The notes: generated by a model not told the origin, from the letters alone. Shown: positions 53,601-64,000, counted from the first letter of the stretch. The stretch is 64,000 nucleotides of DNA from Escherichia coli (GCF_011045215.1 NZ_CP049201.1), one strand, 5' to 3'. Translations and numbers: made by a program.

Positions 53601-55001
53601 TGTCAGTAGTTTTTGCAGATGGATGAGCAAACGGTCAATCGCACGATAGCTAACTGCCTCCTGCAAATGCTGACGTGTGATAATGTCAGACTGATCAATA
53701 TCAGCAATGGTTCGTGCAACTTTCAATAACCGCTGCCAGGCACGAATCGATAACCCCAGATGGATCAGCGTTTCTTCCAGCCACTGCGCATCTTCGCTCT
53801 CAAGCTTGCAGAATTTGCGTATTTCCGGACTATCCAGCCAGGCATTCAGTTTATTCTGCCGCTTAAATTGGCGCTCTCTGGCGGCCATTACGCGTTGTTT
53901 AACGGTGGCGCTGCTTTCTCCCGGCACTACCGTTTTACTCAAAATGCCGGGGGGTGGTAATGGGATCTCCAGTGAGAGATCGAAGCGGTCGAGAAAGGGC
54001 CCCGAGAGCCGGTTGAGATAACGTAATGTCTGTTCTGGCGTGCAGCGGTTATGGTTTCCCTGATAATGTCCGGTAGGGCTGGGATTCATCGCCGCAACAA
54101 GCTGGAAACGGGCTGGATAGGTTATTTTTGCTCGTGTGCGTGAAAGATGGATCTGCCCGGATTCAATCGGCTCTCGCAAAGCATCCAGTGTACGCCGTTC
54201 AAATTCAGGTAGCTCATCAAGAAAAAGCACGCCGTTATGCGCCAACGAAATTTCACCAGGCCCTGGAATTGCACCACCGCCCACCATCGCAGTTAACGAC
54301 GCACTGTGATGCGGTGAGCGGAACGGGCGCTGCCGCCATTGTTTTTGTACTGATTCAGCATTTACCAGACTTAATATCGCAGCGCTCTCCAGTGCCTCTT
54401 CATTGCTTAAATCTGGCAAAAGACCATTAATACGGCTGGCGAGCATTGTTTTACCTGTTCCCGGCGGTCCAATCAGTAAAAGGTTGTGCCCACCAGCGGC
54501 GGTAATTTCCAGTCCTCGCTTTCCTTGCTCCTGACCGACAACATCACTGAGATCATGTTGTAGCGCCCGGGATACTGCATCAGTTGGTTTCGGGCGTTCG
54601 AGAGTGTGCTTACCTTCCAGAAACGCACAGACAGCCTGCAGATGATCGGCTATCAAGCATCCTTCTCCGTTAATTAGCCCCACTTCATCTTCGTTATCTT
54701 TCGCGACGATAATTTTTCTGCCCGACTTAATAGCTTCAGTTGCACTGGAGATTGCGCCGGGAACGCCACGCAGAGCGCCTGTAAGCGCCAGTTCTCCGAC
54801 TAATTCATATTCATCTAACTTATTGGCTGTAAGCTGTTCTGAGGCCGCCAGCAACGCAATGGCGATAGGTAAATCATATCGTCCCCCTTCTTTTGGTAGA
54901 TCGGCTGGAGCAAGGTTAATGGTGATTTTTTTCGCCGGATATTCATATCCGCTATTTATAACTAAATTCGCATAACTTATTGAATCTAATTGATAAATCA
55001 C
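53598..55001 (-). CDS. yifB: YifB/ComM Mg-chelatase-like AAA+ ATPase, 5'-truncated with an element-derived 14-codon N-terminus
   Basis: ORF begins MIYQLDSISYANLV and then joins the conserved INSGYEYPAKKITINLAPADLPKEGG; the remembered native N-terminal ~45 residues (MSLSIVHTRAALGV...) are absent; Walker A GPPGTGKT present. Confidence 0.8.
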   Translation of the reverse strand: MIYQLDSISYANLVINSGYEYPAKKITINLAPADLPKEGGRYDLPIAIALLAASEQLTANKLDEYELVGELALTGALRGVPGAISSATEAIKSGRKIIVAKDNEDEVGLINGEGCLIADHLQAVCAFLEGKHTLERPKPTDAVSRALQHDLSDVVGQEQGKRGLEITAAGGHNLLLIGPPGTGKTMLASRINGLLPDLSNEEALESAAILSLVNAESVQKQWRQRPFRSPHHSASLTAMVGGGAIPGPGEISLAHNGVLFLDELPEFERRTLDALREPIESGQIHLSRTRAKITYPARFQLVAAMNPSPTGHYQGNHNRCTPEQTLRYLNRLSGPFLDRFDLSLEIPLPPPGILSKTVVPGESSATVKQRVMAARERQFKRQNKLNAWLDSPEIRKFCKLESEDAQWLEETLIHLGLSIRAWQRLLKVARTIADIDQSDIITRQHLQEAVSYRAIDRLLIHLQKLLT

Positions 55002-55386
55002 ACTATAAATAACGTTAGAAATCGCAAATTAACTACACCATTAACTACACCGTTCGGTGCACTGTATGGAACAACTTGGAACAAATAGACACAAGCGATA
55101 TACAGGAAGGGACAATTTTTCTATGCAGATTTGCATAGTTCCAAATGAAGCTGGTGGATGATCAGGGATAACCCGATATGGGAATCCCCATATCGGCATC
55201 GCGTAGTTAATCGTAGTGGCTACCGTAGTAGCCTCCGTAGTTGAGTCGCAGGGATGTAACAACCTGCCAGGAAGGAAATGATCGTGACTCGCCGTGACAT
55301 GACGTGATTAATCGTGACACCAAACAAAAAGCCTTACCCGTAGGCTTAATGCTTGGCTTGACTGTAGGCTTACCGTAACGCGCCGC

Positions 55387-55566
55387 TCACCGTCGCAGCC
55401 TGTCCGGTTTCCGCCACTGATACGGCCTCACATTATCATGCTGGTGGCGTTCCTGTTGCAGCACAACGGAAACAGGCGCTGAACACCTGTTAATTTTGCT
55501 TGCTGGTTGTTTGATTCCGGCAATGCTGCGGATCATCTTCAGCAAATCGGCTTCGGTGATGGTCAT
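55387..55566 (-). CDS. Possible small protein (59 aa) near element end
   Basis: Minus-strand ORF MTITEADLLKMIRSIAGIKQPASKINR... hand-translated; below ORF-track threshold; no clear RBS. Confidence 0.25.
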   Translation of the reverse strand: MTITEADLLKMIRSIAGIKQPASKINRCSAPVSVVLQQERHQHDNVRPYQWRKPDRLRR

Positions 55567-55589
55567 GGTTTACACCTTAGGAAATCTTA

Positions 55590-55860
55590 GGGGGCTGGTT
55601 GACACTTTCCGGCTTAAGACCTTAACAAACCTTAACATCGCAGGTTGACACACTTGACACTTTTTCGCGAAAAACCTTATCAAACCTTAGCATTTCTAAG
55701 CATGGCAACTTGACACTTTTCGCGATTTTTTTCGGCTTTTTGACGTGGTAAATCTGGCGCAAGGCCAGTAACGGCGGGGCTTACAGCGAGGTTGACACTT
55801 TTTCGCGTTCAGAGTGTAAAGTGTCAACCCGGCAAGCTGCTCAACTTGACACTTTTTGAT
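55590..55860. repeat. Array of at least 7 TTGACAC(T)n CGCG iteron-like repeats
   Basis: ggttgacactttcc, ggttgacacacttgacactttttcgcg, cttgacacttttcgcg, ggttgacactttttcgcg, gtgtcaacc (inverted), cttgacactttttgatg. Confidence 0.8.
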
Positions 55861-55861
55861 G

Positions 55862-56389
55862 TCATTGATGGTCTGATTTTTCCCATTCAGCCAGGGCGTT
55901 TAGCCCGGCTTCACTCCATGATTCCAGTTCATCGGCATAATCACCTGCAACATAGCAGAGTTCGCAACGCAGCATACGAATTGCCAGCCTGGCATTACCT
56001 CGCAAATTGTATTGTTCAAAGTAATGCTGCCCGTCGCAATCCTCAAGGCAGATAGCACCATCATCAAGAAAGTGCACTTCCCAGCCTAATTCCCCGGCTG
56101 CATCCAGCACACGCTGCTGTATGCCCTCGTCCGTTGCTGGCGCAGGAATTTTACCGTCTCTGGCCTTAACTGCTTTCCAGAACTCGCCCCACGTCATTTC
56201 CAGCGTTCTCTCTGGCCACATTTCAGAAACTGTGTCTTTTCCCTGTGCTGGTGGGCTGTTCCGCTGCTCTGTCGCTTCCACATCGATTTTTTTACCGGAC
56301 ATGACCACTTCGCCTTTCTCGATCCAGTCGTAAACTGTCTGGCGGCTTACGCCTTTGTGTTTGGCATATTCTGCCTTACTCATCAGCAT
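55862..56389 (-). CDS. HTH protein resembling phage small terminase subunit / packaging-redirection protein
   Basis: 175 aa; N-terminal MSKAEYAKHKGVSRQTVYDWIEKG helix-turn-helix typical of TerS-like proteins. Confidence 0.55.
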   Translation of the reverse strand: MLMSKAEYAKHKGVSRQTVYDWIEKGEVVMSGKKIDVEATEQRNSPPAQGKDTVSEMWPERTLEMTWGEFWKAVKARDGKIPAPATDEGIQQRVLDAAGELGWEVHFLDDGAICLEDCDGQHYFEQYNLRGNARLAIRMLRCELCYVAGDYADELESWSEAGLNALAEWEKSDHQ

Positions 56390-56395
56390 TATGAC

Positions 56396-62772: not shown

Positions 62773-63130
62773 GCTCCACCTCCTGGCGAATACGGGCAGC
62801 GAATACCATCACGCAGCCATCAGGAGATTGCTGGCGTGCTTCCTGTTCGCTGGTGGCCTCGATGTGAATTACGCGCGGTTGTGCCGTGCTCAGGGCGATA
62901 AAACGCCAGATAAAATTGTTCTCGCATTTCTGAATAAACAGCGTGTTTTCTTCGCGCCCTTTCCATGTTGCCGAGATATAGCCCATGTCATTGAGCATCT
63001 CGCAGGCATCAACCAGCGTATCGGCGGCTACGTGTACAGTGTTTTTACCGTCAGCTATGCAATCACGGTGCACCGCCAGGAAGGTGTATATAAATTTAGG
63101 GTGAGTTTGGGTATGCTGTGTTCCAGCCAT
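62765..63130 (-). CDS. Hypothetical protein (about 121 aa), first gene of leftward operon
   Basis: Internal start MAGTQHTQTHPKFIYTF within ORF-track 62765..63967; the upstream extension is low-complexity and overlaps the divergent promoter. Confidence 0.55.
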   Translation of the reverse strand: MAGTQHTQTHPKFIYTFLAVHRDCIADGKNTVHVAADTLVDACEMLNDMGYISATWKGREENTLFIQKCENNFIWRFIALSTAQPRVIHIEATSEQEARQQSPDGCVMVFAARIRQEVEHV

Positions 63131-63329
63131 AATCGTTACTCCTATTAACGGTTTGGTTAGAAGCCCGGTTAGTGTTAGCGCACTGCCGGGTTTCGTCGTT
63201 TCAATTGCTGAATTGCATGTATCAGCCCTTGTGGTATTCAGATTACATTTTGGTGAATACCATTTCAAGTCTTTTTTGGTATTCACTTTTGTATTACACT
63301 GCATCCCGTTATTAATCGGAGGTGCAAAC
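63131..63329. promoter_or_regulatory. Divergent promoter/operator region of the element
   Basis: Intergenic between leftward and rightward genes; inverted repeats GGTATTCA ... GTGAATACC ... GGTATTCAC. Confidence 0.55.
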
Positions 63330-63629
63330 ATGTCCACGAGTTCTGTTAACAATAAGTCACAGCAACTGAATGCCAGATTTCCACATGAAGTAGTGAGTGG
63401 CATTGAGGCATCCCTACAGCCAGGGGAAACTAAAGCGAATTTTATAGTTACGGCTGTGCGCGGTGAAATCGCCCGCCGCCAGGCAGAAGGAAGCGGAGAA
63501 AATCCCCTGGTTTCTTCGCTCGATGCGCTGGAACAAATGGAAAAAATAGGGGTCGAACTCGCCGAAAATATAGAGCAGCTTGTTTCCGTTGCTCGTGAAG
63601 AACTCCAGCGGCGCAAGGCCAAAGGGTAG
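63330..63629 (+). CDS. Putative small DNA-binding regulator (about 99 aa)
   Basis: Start taken at MSTSSVNNKSQQLNARFPHEVVSGIEASL with GGAGG RBS; position matches a satellite master-repressor slot. Confidence 0.5.
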   Translation: MSTSSVNNKSQQLNARFPHEVVSGIEASLQPGETKANFIVTAVRGEIARRQAEGSGENPLVSSLDALEQMEKIGVELAENIEQLVSVAREELQRRKAKG

Positions 63630-63698
63630 CCAGAATAATCACCATTCGCGCCAGAGCCTAAGGAACTCGAGCGCCAGACTGTAAGCAGGGGGCGAACC

Positions 63699-63878
63699 AT
63701 GCCTAAATTAAAAGATTTTTTAGCCCAGCAAATGGCGAAAGAAATTGCACAAGAAACCGAACAGGGAAAGGTTAAAACCTTCCACCTTGAGCAATTTCTT
63801 AAAACGCACAAGCGCACAAAAATGGGGCTATATACCTGGAAAACATCACGACATGGTGATGTTGAAGAGCATAAATAA
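63699..63878 (+). CDS. Small hypothetical protein (59 aa)
   Basis: Hand-translated MPKLKDFLAQQMAKEIAQETEQGKVKTFHLEQFLKTHKRTKMGLYTWKTSRHGDVEEHK with AGGGGG RBS; below ORF-track length cutoff. Confidence 0.4.
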   Translation: MPKLKDFLAQQMAKEIAQETEQGKVKTFHLEQFLKTHKRTKMGLYTWKTSRHGDVEEHK

Positions 63879-63936
63879 CCACTATCAGCGCCGTGGTGTG
63901 AGGATCCATGGCACAAAGCAGTATCCAAGAGAAAAA

Positions 63937-64000
63937 TGATGGACGCACAGAAACTAGATATACTCACCTCCTTTCTGGAAGAACGTAAACGAAAATGGGG
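63937..64000 (+). CDS. 5' end of an ORF running off the window (MMDAQKLDILTSFLEERKRKW...)
   Basis: Open frame from ATG at 63937 to window end. Confidence 0.3.

What the first reader, a model, noticed from the sequence alone, without database searches (positions are those of the whole stretch)
54966..64000. PICI-like phage satellite with unusual cargo (FinO-domain protein, PerC-like regulator, unknown genes)
The architecture is a divergent regulatory switch (63131-63329), a leftward operon of four small overlapping genes ending in a primase-helicase with iterons immediately 3' of it, then accessory genes and a TerS-like HTH gene with a terminal repeat array. This matches the replication-packaging logic of phage-inducible chromosomal islands. 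Most proteins have no recognisable function, and satellites are known carriers of anti-phage and interference systems.
Basis: partly seen in the sequence, partly recalled or inferred. Interest (0 to 1): 0.75.

Follow-up and report, generated by a model that had tools for sequence, protein, structure and literature searches.

The report
EcCICFT073-type phage satellite in yifB
The region is the left three quarters of a phage-inducible chromosomal island of the well-studied E. coli EcCICFT073 lineage, inserted in the yifB (comM) gene; the kind of element is known, but its phage-hijacking module has not been characterised.

Summary
The yifB gene is broken at 54950-54965 by a 16-bp att core. From there to the window end runs one mobile element, almost all on the minus strand.

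It shares its backbone with EcCICFT073, the experimentally studied Gram-negative PICI. The gene order is the same. The primase is 71% identical, with the same GGTAGAYA iterons just 3' of it. Icd-like, DUF4222 and PerC genes are shared, and the att-arm repeats are 91% identical. Integrase and AlpA lie beyond base 64000. In a relative at the same yifB site they are 84% and 98% identical to those of EcCICFT073.

So the PICI interpretation is right. PerC is ordinary PICI cargo, and no PADLOC defence model matched the ten proteins scanned.

The late module is what differs. There is no lambda cosN and no Rpp. Instead there is:
- a satellite-specific winged-HTH protein next to a conserved array of AAAGTGTMAACC sites;
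- a head-protease/scaffold gene of Rac-SA53-like phages, split into two genes;
- a FinO-domain protein.

I also found a conserved, structured antisense RNA candidate opposite the first gene of the replication operon, and an orphan second origin.

Verdict: a new variant of a known kind, of moderate interest.

The parts
54950..54965 (.). att core (ATCCGCTATTTATAAC) at the junction between yifB and the island
   Evidence: The same 16-mer, with one mismatch, flanks the island at both ends in ETEC1748 (L002 ~7047-7062 and 18895-18910).
55016..55106 (.). att arm region, including the tandem ATTAACTACACC x2 at 55028-55051; probable integrase arm-type sites
   Evidence: 91% identical to the end of EcCICFT073 (L076 17049-17139). 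A 36-nt part recurs at the other end of EcCICFT073 (L076 5874-5909).
55387..55566 (-). Small terminal ORF of 59 aa, function unknown
   Evidence: 40% identical to the last small ORF of EcCICFT073, which lies downstream of rppA. Matches PHROG families of unknown function.
55594..55861 (.). Array of 7 GGTTGACACTTT-type sites (AAAGTGTCAACC on the gene strand), in two clusters; proposed binding array for the HTH protein and candidate packaging site
   Evidence: Seven of nine TTGACAC heptamers in the window fall here. Five to seven copies lie within 400 nt downstream of the gene in all 35 distinct relatives. AAAGTGT[AC]AACC arrays follow homologues at 57% and 37% identity in Klebsiella and Enterobacter.
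55862..56389 (-). 175-aa winged-HTH protein with a novel alpha/beta C-terminal domain; occupies the position Rpp holds in EcCICFT073
56396..57067 (-). Stand-alone DUF2213 protein with a prohead-protease fold
57132..57725 (-). 197-aa protein: a unique N-terminus plus the C-terminal, scaffold-like part of the same phage head protein
   Evidence: 59% identical to residues 280-422 of the Rac-SA53 430-aa protein. Matches phrog_6216 positions 402-544.
57756..57953 (-). Small ORF of 57-65 aa, function unknown
   Evidence: An ORF annotated as hypothetical in relatives and conserved at 92-98% in the relatives that also keep the DUF2213 and 197-aa genes (62-76% in others). A ribbon-helix-helix fold is my reading of the sequence only.
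58061..58091 (-). Intrinsic terminator after the FinO-PerC pair
   Evidence: A 12-bp stem followed by a T run.
58131..58418 (-). PerC-family regulator
   Evidence: phrog_994 at 2.8e-35. 52% identical to the EcCICFT073 PerC-family protein. Named PerC family in relatives.
58415..58957 (-). ProQ/FinO-domain RNA-binding protein with a basic N-terminal extension
   Evidence: Pfam PF04352 at 1.2e-23. PDB ProQ NTD, FinO, NMB1681 and RocC all match.
59098..59425 (.). AT-rich region with 6 CCCCACTTTT repeats: an orphan origin of a RepA-helicase-type replicon
   Evidence: Repeats located. The same repeats lie directly 3' of the intact repA-type gene in L002.
59424..59771 (-). Remnant: the C-terminal 115 aa of a RepA-family helicase/initiator
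   Evidence: 97% identical to residues 356-470 of the L002 RepA helicase. Annotated as an incomplete pseudogene in relatives.
59842..60122 (.). Replication origin: two sets of GGTAGAYA iterons flanking an AT-rich stretch
   Evidence: Nine copies here against two elsewhere in the window. The same iterons lie 3' of pri in EcCICFT073. This layout is described for Gram-negative PICI origins (PMC6092414).
60148..61896 (-). Pri-Rep replication protein (D5_N, DUF5906, Pox_D5; P4-family primase C-terminal domain)
   Evidence: 71% identical over its full length to EcCICFT073 Pri. Domains from Pfam and NCBIfam. The N-terminal 142 aa are 88% identical to the RepA-type initiator of L002.
61893..63130 (-). 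Four small early genes: DUF4222 61893-62183, orf127 62190-62573, orf74 62548-62772, Icd-like 62765-63130
   Evidence: Located. The EcCICFT073 homologues are 52% (DUF4222) and 74% (Icd-like) identical.
63120..63200 (+). Candidate ~80-nt cis-antisense RNA: two hairpins plus a U-tract, opposite the RBS and ATG of the Icd-like gene
   Evidence: Sub-threshold Rfam symR hit at 37 bits, E 3.8e-4. 37 sequence variants across PICIs, including EcCICFT073. 99% of cells paired, 4 compensatory pairs, and G-U pairs valid only on the + strand. MFE is -33.9 on the + strand against -20.6 kcal/mol on the - strand.
63233..63285 (.). Three GGTATTCA octamers (two direct, one inverted); operator-like sites upstream of the YlcI/YnfO gene
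   Evidence: Located. Their function is inferred.
63330..63629 (+). YlcI/YnfO-family (DUF3950) small protein, divergent from the main operon
   Evidence: NCBIfam NF041551 at 1.3e-16. A gene of this family occupies the same position in EcCICFT073.
63699..64000 (+). Two further small rightward ORFs: 63699-63878, and 63936 onward, cut by the window end
   Evidence: Both ORFs are complete in the closest relative, L012. There they are followed by an antirepressor gene and alpA.

Best explanation
This is an integrated Gram-negative phage-inducible chromosomal island (PICI) of the EcCICFT073 lineage. It is about 12 kb long and sits in codons ~52-57 of yifB/comM. The window holds the left ~9 kb.

Shown:
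- The backbone is homologous to EcCICFT073.
- The Pri protein has its cognate iteron origin immediately 3' of the gene.
- The att core and arm repeats are present.
- The late region does not carry the EcCICFT073 capsid, decoration, Rpp and cos set.

Inferred life cycle:
1. A helper phage induces alpA, which lies outside the window and is 98% identical to the EcCICFT073 gene in relatives. AlpA then switches on the leftward operon.
2. The first cistron of that operon (Icd-like) is additionally held in check by a ~80-nt cis-antisense RNA made from the opposite strand.
3. Pri replicates the excised circle from the GGTAGAYA origin.
4. The 175-aa winged-HTH protein binds the adjacent array of seven AAAGTGTCAACC sites. 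This directs the helper's terminase to satellite DNA. It would be an Rpp-like job done by an unrelated protein on a non-cos site.
5. The stand-alone prohead-protease-fold protein and the stand-alone scaffold C-terminal domain both derive from one head gene of Rac-SA53-like phages. They interfere with or remodel helper capsid assembly.

The likely helpers are lambdoid phages with Rac-SA53/E217-type head and tail genes.

The FinO-domain protein is an RNA chaperone with an unknown partner. PerC is the usual PICI accessory regulator.
For: Backbone:
- The gene order matches EcCICFT073: int, alpA, (ant), divergent YlcI, Icd-like, small ORFs, DUF4222, pri, ori, X, PerC, late genes, HTH protein, small ORF, att.
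- Identities to EcCICFT073 are Pri 71%, Icd-like 74%, PerC 52% and DUF4222 52%. The att-arm DNA is 91% identical.
- The iterons are identical in sequence.
- Int and AlpA of the relative at the yifB site are 84% and 98% identical to those of EcCICFT073.
- att repeats flank that relative.
- The island is not core: only 10 of 5426 genomes have this junction.

Packaging module:
- The site array is conserved next to the gene across 37-100% protein identity.
- The motif is absent from EcCICFT073 and from the phage late regions held.
- The wHTH is of the TerS/Rpp/Xis type.
- There is no lambda cosN.

Capsid module.

Helper link:
- Only 14 phage records carry the fused gene.
- Relatives carry rac52-like (81% identical) and SLT genes matching those of Rac-SA53.
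- A Klebsiella relative abuts E217-type tail genes and a capsid-gene fragment.

Antisense RNA.

The PICI biology comes from PMC6092414 and PMC6739421.
Against: - The integrase, alpA and the second att copy are not in the window. Intactness is inferred from relatives.
- The element carries a replication-gene remnant, so some decay has occurred.
- No experiment or direct sequence evidence shows that the 175-aa protein binds the array or a terminase. The array could instead be a regulatory or partition-like site.
- The split protease and scaffold genes could be passively captured helper DNA. A subset of relatives lacks them.
- The antisense RNA has only a weak promoter match in the window's variant. 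The symR match is below threshold and is not reproduced for the EcCICFT073 variant.
- The RNA occurs in PICIs with and without FinO, so nothing links it to FinO.
Confidence: 0.85

Rival explanations
1. A decayed, non-mobilisable remnant of a PICI. The backbone is recognisable, but the element no longer excises, replicates or transfers.
For: It contains a pseudogene-like RepA fragment and an orphan origin. The integrase end is unseen. Only 5 of 5426 genomes cover at least 80% of the query, so the family is highly mosaic.
Against: All 15 complete ORFs are intact. The Pri gene, its iterons, the att core and the arm sites are complete. Close relatives with the same modules have intact int, alpA and both att copies, and they sit at several chromosomal sites, which implies recent mobility.
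Confidence: 0.1
2. A P4-like satellite that parasitises P2-type phages.
For: It has a P4-family primase C-terminal domain. An AlpA/Vis-like regulator and a tyrosine integrase are present in relatives. An Icd-like gene is associated with P1/P4-type immunity regions.
Against: No C4/CI RNA or IsrK match at E<=1. None of the 15 proteins matched a PHROG family annotated as Sid, Psu or Delta. The primase is 582 aa and lacks the Toprim/Zn-ribbon part. The late genes derive from Rac-SA53-type phages, not P2-type. The backbone is that of EcCICFT073.
Confidence: 0.02
3. The 175-aa HTH protein and its site array are not a packaging module. They are a transcriptional regulator with its operators, or an excision or partition accessory. 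Packaging would then rely on something else.
For: The best structural matches include excisionases and BldC-type regulators as well as TerS. The array lies 3' of the gene, whereas the EcCICFT073 cos lies 5' of rpp. TTGACA-like cores resemble -35 boxes.
Against: The protein holds the same position as Rpp at the distal end of the late zone. The array is 550-850 bp from the att core, which is far for an excisionase. No other packaging determinant was found in the element.
Confidence: 0.3

Closest known systems
EcCICFT073, the reference Gram-negative PICI of E. coli CFT073 (Fillol-Salom 2018, 2019)
   Same: - Same gene order.
- Pri 71% identical, with the same GGTAGAYA iteron origin.
- Icd-like, DUF4222, PerC and YlcI/YnfO genes are shared.
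- The att-arm repeats are shared.
- Int and AlpA of relatives are 84% and 98% identical.
   Different: - It is inserted in yifB, not between roxA and phoQ.
- It has no major capsid or decoration genes.
- It has no RppA and no lambda-type cos.
- A FinO-domain gene sits where EcCICFT073 has ssb.
- It has a split protease/scaffold pair.
- It has a 175-aa wHTH protein with a repeat array.
- It has an extra orphan origin.
EcCIMP1 (E. coli MP1 PICI, helper phage Kapi1; PMC11773190)
   Same: It has an integrase, AlpA, an antirepressor, a primase and PerC-family content. It shows that E. coli PICIs can use non-lambda-type helpers.
   Different: It is a 20-kb element at tRNA-Thr, described as phylogenetically distant from other PICIs. 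I did not compare the sequences directly.
SaPI capsid-size redirection by CpmB (a scaffold mimic), and P2 gpO (a protease-scaffold fusion)
   Same: In both cases a satellite or phage uses a protein carrying the scaffold's capsid-binding C-terminus. The helper gene here fuses a protease fold to a C-terminal domain, as gpO does.
   Different: There is no sequence relation. Here the helper gene is split into two satellite genes in reversed order. Any effect on capsid size is untested.
Helper-embedded satellites and the capture of late genes by Gram-negative PICIs (PMC10111431)
   Same: Relatives carry captured helper late genes (rac52-like plus SLT). A Klebsiella relative abuts prophage tail genes and a capsid-gene fragment.
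   Different: The window's copy is chromosomal, in yifB. The helpers implied are of the Rac-SA53/E217 type, not the lambda E-capsid type.
SymR/SymE and FinP/traJ cis-antisense control
   Same: A short structured RNA is encoded opposite the ribosome-binding site and start codon of the regulated gene. It ends in a hairpin with a U-tail of the kind FinO/ProQ proteins bind.
   Different: The Rfam symR score is 37, against a gathering score of 61. The EcCICFT073 variant gives no hit. The target is an Icd-like gene. No transcript has been shown, and the RNA does not co-occur with FinO.

Membership tests
Gram-negative PICI (EcCICFT073 type) | Tyrosine integrase at one end, with flanking att direct repeats | tested here: inconclusive
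   One att core (54950-54965) and the arm repeats are in the window. The integrase and second core lie beyond base 64000. Both are present in the relative at the same yifB site, whose integrase is 84% identical to that of EcCICFT073.
Gram-negative PICI (EcCICFT073 type) | AlpA-family activator next to int | tested here: inconclusive
   It lies outside the window. The closest relatives for the right end (L012, L002) encode an AlpA 98% identical to that of EcCICFT073.
Gram-negative PICI (EcCICFT073 type) | pri-rep gene with the origin immediately 3': two iteron sets flanking an AT-rich stretch | tested here: met
   Pri is 71% identical to that of EcCICFT073. Nine GGTAGAYA copies at 59842-60122 flank an AT-rich core. 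The iterons are identical to those of EcCICFT073.
Gram-negative PICI (EcCICFT073 type) | Mostly unidirectional gene organisation, size ~10-15 kb, no full set of phage structural or lysis genes | tested here: met
   Thirteen of 16 ORFs (15 complete, one cut by the window end) are on one strand. About 9 kb lie in the window, plus ~3.4 kb inferred. There are no capsid, portal, tail or lysis genes, only a protease-fold gene and a scaffold fragment.
Gram-negative PICI (EcCICFT073 type) | Induction, packaging and high-frequency transfer that depend on a helper phage | not testable with these tools
   This needs induction and transduction experiments.
Rpp/cos packaging subtype of Gram-negative PICIs | An Rpp protein plus lambda-like cosQ-cosN upstream of rpp | tested here: not met
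Capsid-forming PICI (cf-PICI) | Own major capsid, portal, head-tail connector and terminase genes | tested here: not met
   None were detected by PHROGs or NCBIfam among the ORFs in the window.
P4-like satellite | Sid/Psu/Delta genes, CI (C4-type) RNA, and a full-length alpha primase-helicase | tested here: not met
   No C4 or IsrK hit. No PHROG family annotated as Sid, Psu or Delta matched any protein. Pri lacks a Toprim/Zn-ribbon domain.
ProQ/FinO family | A ProQ/FinO RNA-binding domain | tested here: met
   PF04352 at 1.2e-23 over residues 67-172. Matches to solved ProQ, FinO, NMB1681 and RocC structures. The scores fall below the equivalog cut-offs for FinO and ProQ themselves.
Phage prohead (capsid maturation) protease, T4 gp21 / herpes assemblin fold | The protease fold with conserved Ser and His residues | tested here: met
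SymR antitoxin RNA (Rfam RF01809) | A score at or above the Rfam gathering threshold | tested here: not met
   37 bits against a threshold of 61. The EcCICFT073 variant gives no hit. The resemblance is one of arrangement, not membership.

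The most novel reading that the evidence does not exclude
This PICI subfamily hijacks a different class of helper, lambdoid phages with Rac-SA53/E217-type heads, using machinery not yet described. There would be three new parts.

1. A satellite-specific winged-HTH protein reads a multi-copy AAAGTGTMAACC array as a new packaging signal.
2. A helper head gene has been split into a free protease and a free scaffold domain that subvert capsid assembly.
3. A conserved cis-antisense RNA gates the replication operon across E. 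coli PICIs. In this subfamily it might be assisted by the satellite's own FinO-domain chaperone.
Probability: 0.3. Interest if true: 0.6.

Novelty: new variant of a known kind. Interest (0 to 1): 0.4.

Why it matters
PICIs move virulence and defence genes between enterobacteria and block their helper phages. Only the Rpp/cos route of EcCICFT073 and the capsid-forming PICIs are understood mechanistically in E. coli.

By my reading of the SatelliteFinder core-gene criteria, this variant would score as an incomplete 'Type C' PICI, a class that survey set aside (PMC10085698). Parts of the element occur in about a third of complete E. coli genomes.

Three things would follow from defining its parts:
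- Defining the packaging and capsid modules would extend satellite detection.
- It would identify a new helper class.
- The antisense RNA would add a repressing layer to a system so far described as controlled only by the AlpA activator.

Tried and rejected
- Lambda-type cos: no GGGCGGCGACCT-like site near the HTH gene; the only hit within 2 mismatches inside the island lies in the pri coding sequence.
- Rpp homology by sequence: none in the PDB. Only the HTH aligns with RppA.
- DNA similarity to any deposited phage: none.
- Phage homologues of the 175-aa protein by tblastn: none. BFVD fold search: nothing beyond the HTH.
- Similarity of the 175-aa protein to the Rac-SA53 TerS: none.
- Defence systems: PADLOC gave no hit for 10 proteins.
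- P4/P1-type immunity RNAs (C4, IsrK): no hit.
- FinO as the dedicated chaperone of the antisense RNA: not supported. The RNA element is equally present in PICIs that carry ssb, capsid or RppA genes and no FinO.
- True SymR homology: rejected. The score is below threshold and the EcCICFT073 variant gives no hit.
- The packaging motif in helper-type phage late regions: absent.
- The 205-aa gene of ETEC1732 as a rac44 homologue: rejected. It matches rac52 instead.
- Literature linking FinO/ProQ or SymR-like RNAs to PICIs: none found in the library.
- Reference-PICI supplementary tables: no mention of yifB, FinO or DUF2213.

Full report
**Context and boundary**

Upstream of the finding the window carries an rRNA operon, tRNA-Asp, tRNA-Trp, hdfR and maoP/yifE, followed by yifB on the minus strand. 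This is ordinary E. coli chromosome. The yifB reading frame loses its normal N-terminus at about 54966.

In E. coli ETEC1748 the same gene is split by an 11.8-kb island. The two yifB pieces there are flanked by ATCCGCTATT(T/G)ATAAT. The window has ATCCGCTATTTATAAC at 54950-54965.

Only 10 of 5426 complete E. coli genomes have an island junction at this site. All but one of the 5426 genomes match the yifB half of the query. The region is therefore accessory, not core.

**Anatomy**

Reading the minus strand from right to left:
- Icd-like, 62765-63130.
- orf74, orf127 and DUF4222.
- A 582-aa Pri protein at 60148-61896, with D5_N, DUF5906 and Pox_D5 domains and a match to the P4-family primase C-terminal model.
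- An iteron origin.
- A 115-aa gene fragment.
- An AT-rich repeat region.
- FinO-domain and PerC genes, which overlap by 4 bp and are followed by a strong terminator.
- A small ORF.
- A 197-aa gene, a 223-aa DUF2213 gene and a 175-aa HTH gene.
- A repeat array, a 59-aa ORF and the att arm.

On the plus strand at the right end lie a YlcI/YnfO gene, a 59-aa ORF and the start of a third ORF, which the window end cuts.

The repeats are not chance:
- Nine GGTAGAYA copies fall in 281 bp, against two in the rest of the window.
- Seven of nine TTGACAC heptamers fall in 254 bp.

**Identity**

There is no DNA match to any deposited phage. Partial matches occur in 1810 of 5426 E. coli genomes, but only five cover 80% or more of the query. 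This is a mosaic family.

The annotated EcCICFT073 island of strain CFT073 has the same order. It runs int, alpA, a divergent YlcI/YnfO pair, Icd-like, small ORFs, DUF4222, pri, (ori), ssb, PerC, capsid, decoration, RppA, a small ORF and att.

Direct comparison gives the following:

| Feature | Identity to EcCICFT073 |
|---|---|
| Pri | 71% over full length |
| Icd-like | 74% |
| PerC | 52% |
| DUF4222 | 52% |
| YlcI/YnfO | 32% |
| Terminal small ORF | 40% |
| att-arm DNA | 91% |
| GGTAGAYA iterons 3' of pri | same motif |

The relative at the yifB site has an integrase 84% identical and an AlpA 98% identical to those of EcCICFT073. The closest relative for the window's right end (L012) continues with the cut ORF, an antirepressor gene and the same AlpA.

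Published features of Gram-negative PICIs include unidirectional genes and an origin 3' of pri with two iteron sets around an AT-rich core. They also include an AlpA activator, accessory genes such as PerC, and specific att sites (PMC6092414). The features that can be tested in the window are met.

P4-like and capsid-forming PICI memberships fail their defining tests.

**What differs from the characterised PICIs**

EcCICFT073 packages through RppA and a lambda-like cos site just upstream of rppA (PMC6739421, PMC9026076). Here the late region differs in four ways.

*No cos.* There is no cosN-like sequence near the HTH gene; the only match within 2 mismatches inside the island lies within pri. 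Only 6 bp separate the 175-aa gene from the gene upstream of it.

*A conserved site array.* An array of AAAGTGT(C/A)AACC sites lies on the gene strand, immediately 3' of the gene.
- It has 5-7 copies in all 35 distinct relatives.
- It recurs next to homologues only 57% (Klebsiella) and 37% (Enterobacter) identical.
- It is absent from EcCICFT073 and from the helper-type phage late regions held.

A DNA-binding protein kept together with its multi-site target, in the position Rpp occupies, is best read as the packaging-specificity module. A regulatory role is the main alternative.

*A split head gene.* The DUF2213 gene and the 197-aa gene are the N-terminal part (residues 1-226, 54% identical) and the C-terminal part (residues 280-422, 59% identical) of a single 430-aa gene in phage Rac-SA53.
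- That phage gene lies between the gene annotated rac41 (which I take to be the portal) and rac45 (which I take to be the major capsid gene), the position where the equivalent PdC23 gene sits between its annotated portal and capsid genes.
- Only 14 deposited phages carry the fused gene.
- His73 and Ser125/Ser127 are invariant and His161 nearly so among 28 homologues.

The helper gene is thus a protease-scaffold fusion of the P2 gpO type. That comparison rests on my own knowledge. The satellite keeps the two halves as separate genes in reversed order.

Relatives also carry a rac52-like gene (81% identical) and a lytic transglycosylase gene matching those of Rac-SA53. A Klebsiella relative abuts E217-type tail genes and a capsid-gene fragment. 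Together these point to Rac-SA53/E217-type phages as helpers. They fit the late-gene capture described for helper-embedded satellites (PMC10111431). Interference with capsid assembly or size is inferred, not shown. A subset of relatives has a different insert at this position.

**Cargo**

The FinO domain is real. The gene sits where EcCICFT073 has ssb and is translationally coupled to PerC. I found no RNA partner and no literature on FinO-domain proteins in PICIs.

PerC-family genes are routine in E. coli PICIs, and their effects on LEE vary (PMC11773190). PADLOC found no defence system among ten proteins.

**Additional findings**

*Replication-module swap.* The first 142 residues of Pri are 88% identical to the RepA-type initiator of relative L002. 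The 115-aa ORF at 59424-59771 is 97% identical to that protein's C-terminus. The CCCCACTTTT repeats at 59098-59425 are the iterons that follow the intact repA-type gene in L002. A Pri core with its origin therefore replaced the middle of a RepA-type gene and left an orphan origin behind.

*A candidate antisense RNA in the switch region.* Segment 63154-63202 is invariant among otherwise divergent elements. I collected 37 variants, including the EcCICFT073 one.
- They fold on the plus strand into two hairpins followed by a U-rich tract.
- 99.1% of cells are paired and four pairs show compensatory changes.
- None of 500 shuffles reached the observed covariation score, and pairing collapses when the structure is slid.
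- Several invariant G-U pairs would be A·C mismatches on the other strand.
- The plus-strand fold is far more stable: -33.9 against -20.6 kcal/mol.

The RNA would run from just inside the Icd-like gene across its start codon and ribosome-binding site. Most variants have a TGnTATGAT extended -10 box upstream; the window's variant has the weaker TATGCT.

Rfam gives a sub-threshold symR match (37 bits, E 3.8e-4). The EcCICFT073 variant gives none. I therefore treat SymR as an analogue in arrangement, not a relative. The element occurs in PICIs with and without FinO.

Three GGTATTCA octamers upstream of the YlcI/YnfO gene look like operators.

**Verdict**

The kind of element is known. The hijacking module, the FinO gene and the antisense RNA candidate are uncharacterised. 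I classify it as a new variant of a known kind, of moderate interest.

Noticed in passing
window 59098-59771: An orphan replication module. It consists of a 115-aa C-terminal fragment of a RepA-type initiator and its CCCCACTTTT iterons. It was left behind when a Pri core and its GGTAGAYA origin replaced the middle of the gene. Pri residues 1-142 still match the RepA-type protein at 88%.
   Followed up: yes
window 63120-63200 (+); also L076 ~8745-8830 and 35 other variants: A conserved, structured ~80-nt antisense RNA candidate opposite the start of the Icd-like gene. It is widespread in E. coli PICIs, including EcCICFT073. I found no paper describing it.
   Followed up: partly
L001 and L077 (E. 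coli cq9, ETEC1732): Close relatives of the island sit between abgR and smrA, about 6 kb from the Rac prophage integrase (intR/ttcA site). The ETEC1732 copy carries rac52-like and lytic transglycosylase genes matching those of phage Rac-SA53.
   Followed up: partly
L132 and L133 (Klebsiella), around 10001-10516: A PICI-like element with a homologue of the 175-aa protein lies directly next to E217-type tail genes and a fragment of a major capsid gene. This suggests a satellite embedded in its helper prophage. L132 also holds duplicated Dit-like and Pam3_gp18 baseplate genes.
   Followed up: partly
L134 (Enterobacter hormaechei) 8507-9877: A distant relative of the element has Int, AlpA, ORF6N and DUF3950 genes but no recognisable primase. 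It carries a KAP-family NTPase next to the HTH gene, which may be defence cargo.
   Followed up: no
window 53598-55001: The truncated yifB frame stays open into the island and reaches a GTG start. This gives a 467-aa ORF with a foreign N-terminus (VIYQLDSISYANLV...). Relatives annotate yifB as a pseudogene.
   Followed up: no
window 58055-58131 (-): Two consecutive terminator-like hairpins follow PerC. They produced weak, spurious Rfam hits (ncr1175, Thr_leader).
   Followed up: no
P0154-P0170 and L004 3625-5286: In many phages the DUF2213 protease-fold domain is fused to an N-terminal NUDIX domain. This explains the misleading 'NUDIX hydrolase' and 'TolA' names that annotation gives to the satellite's 197-aa and 223-aa proteins.
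   Followed up: partly
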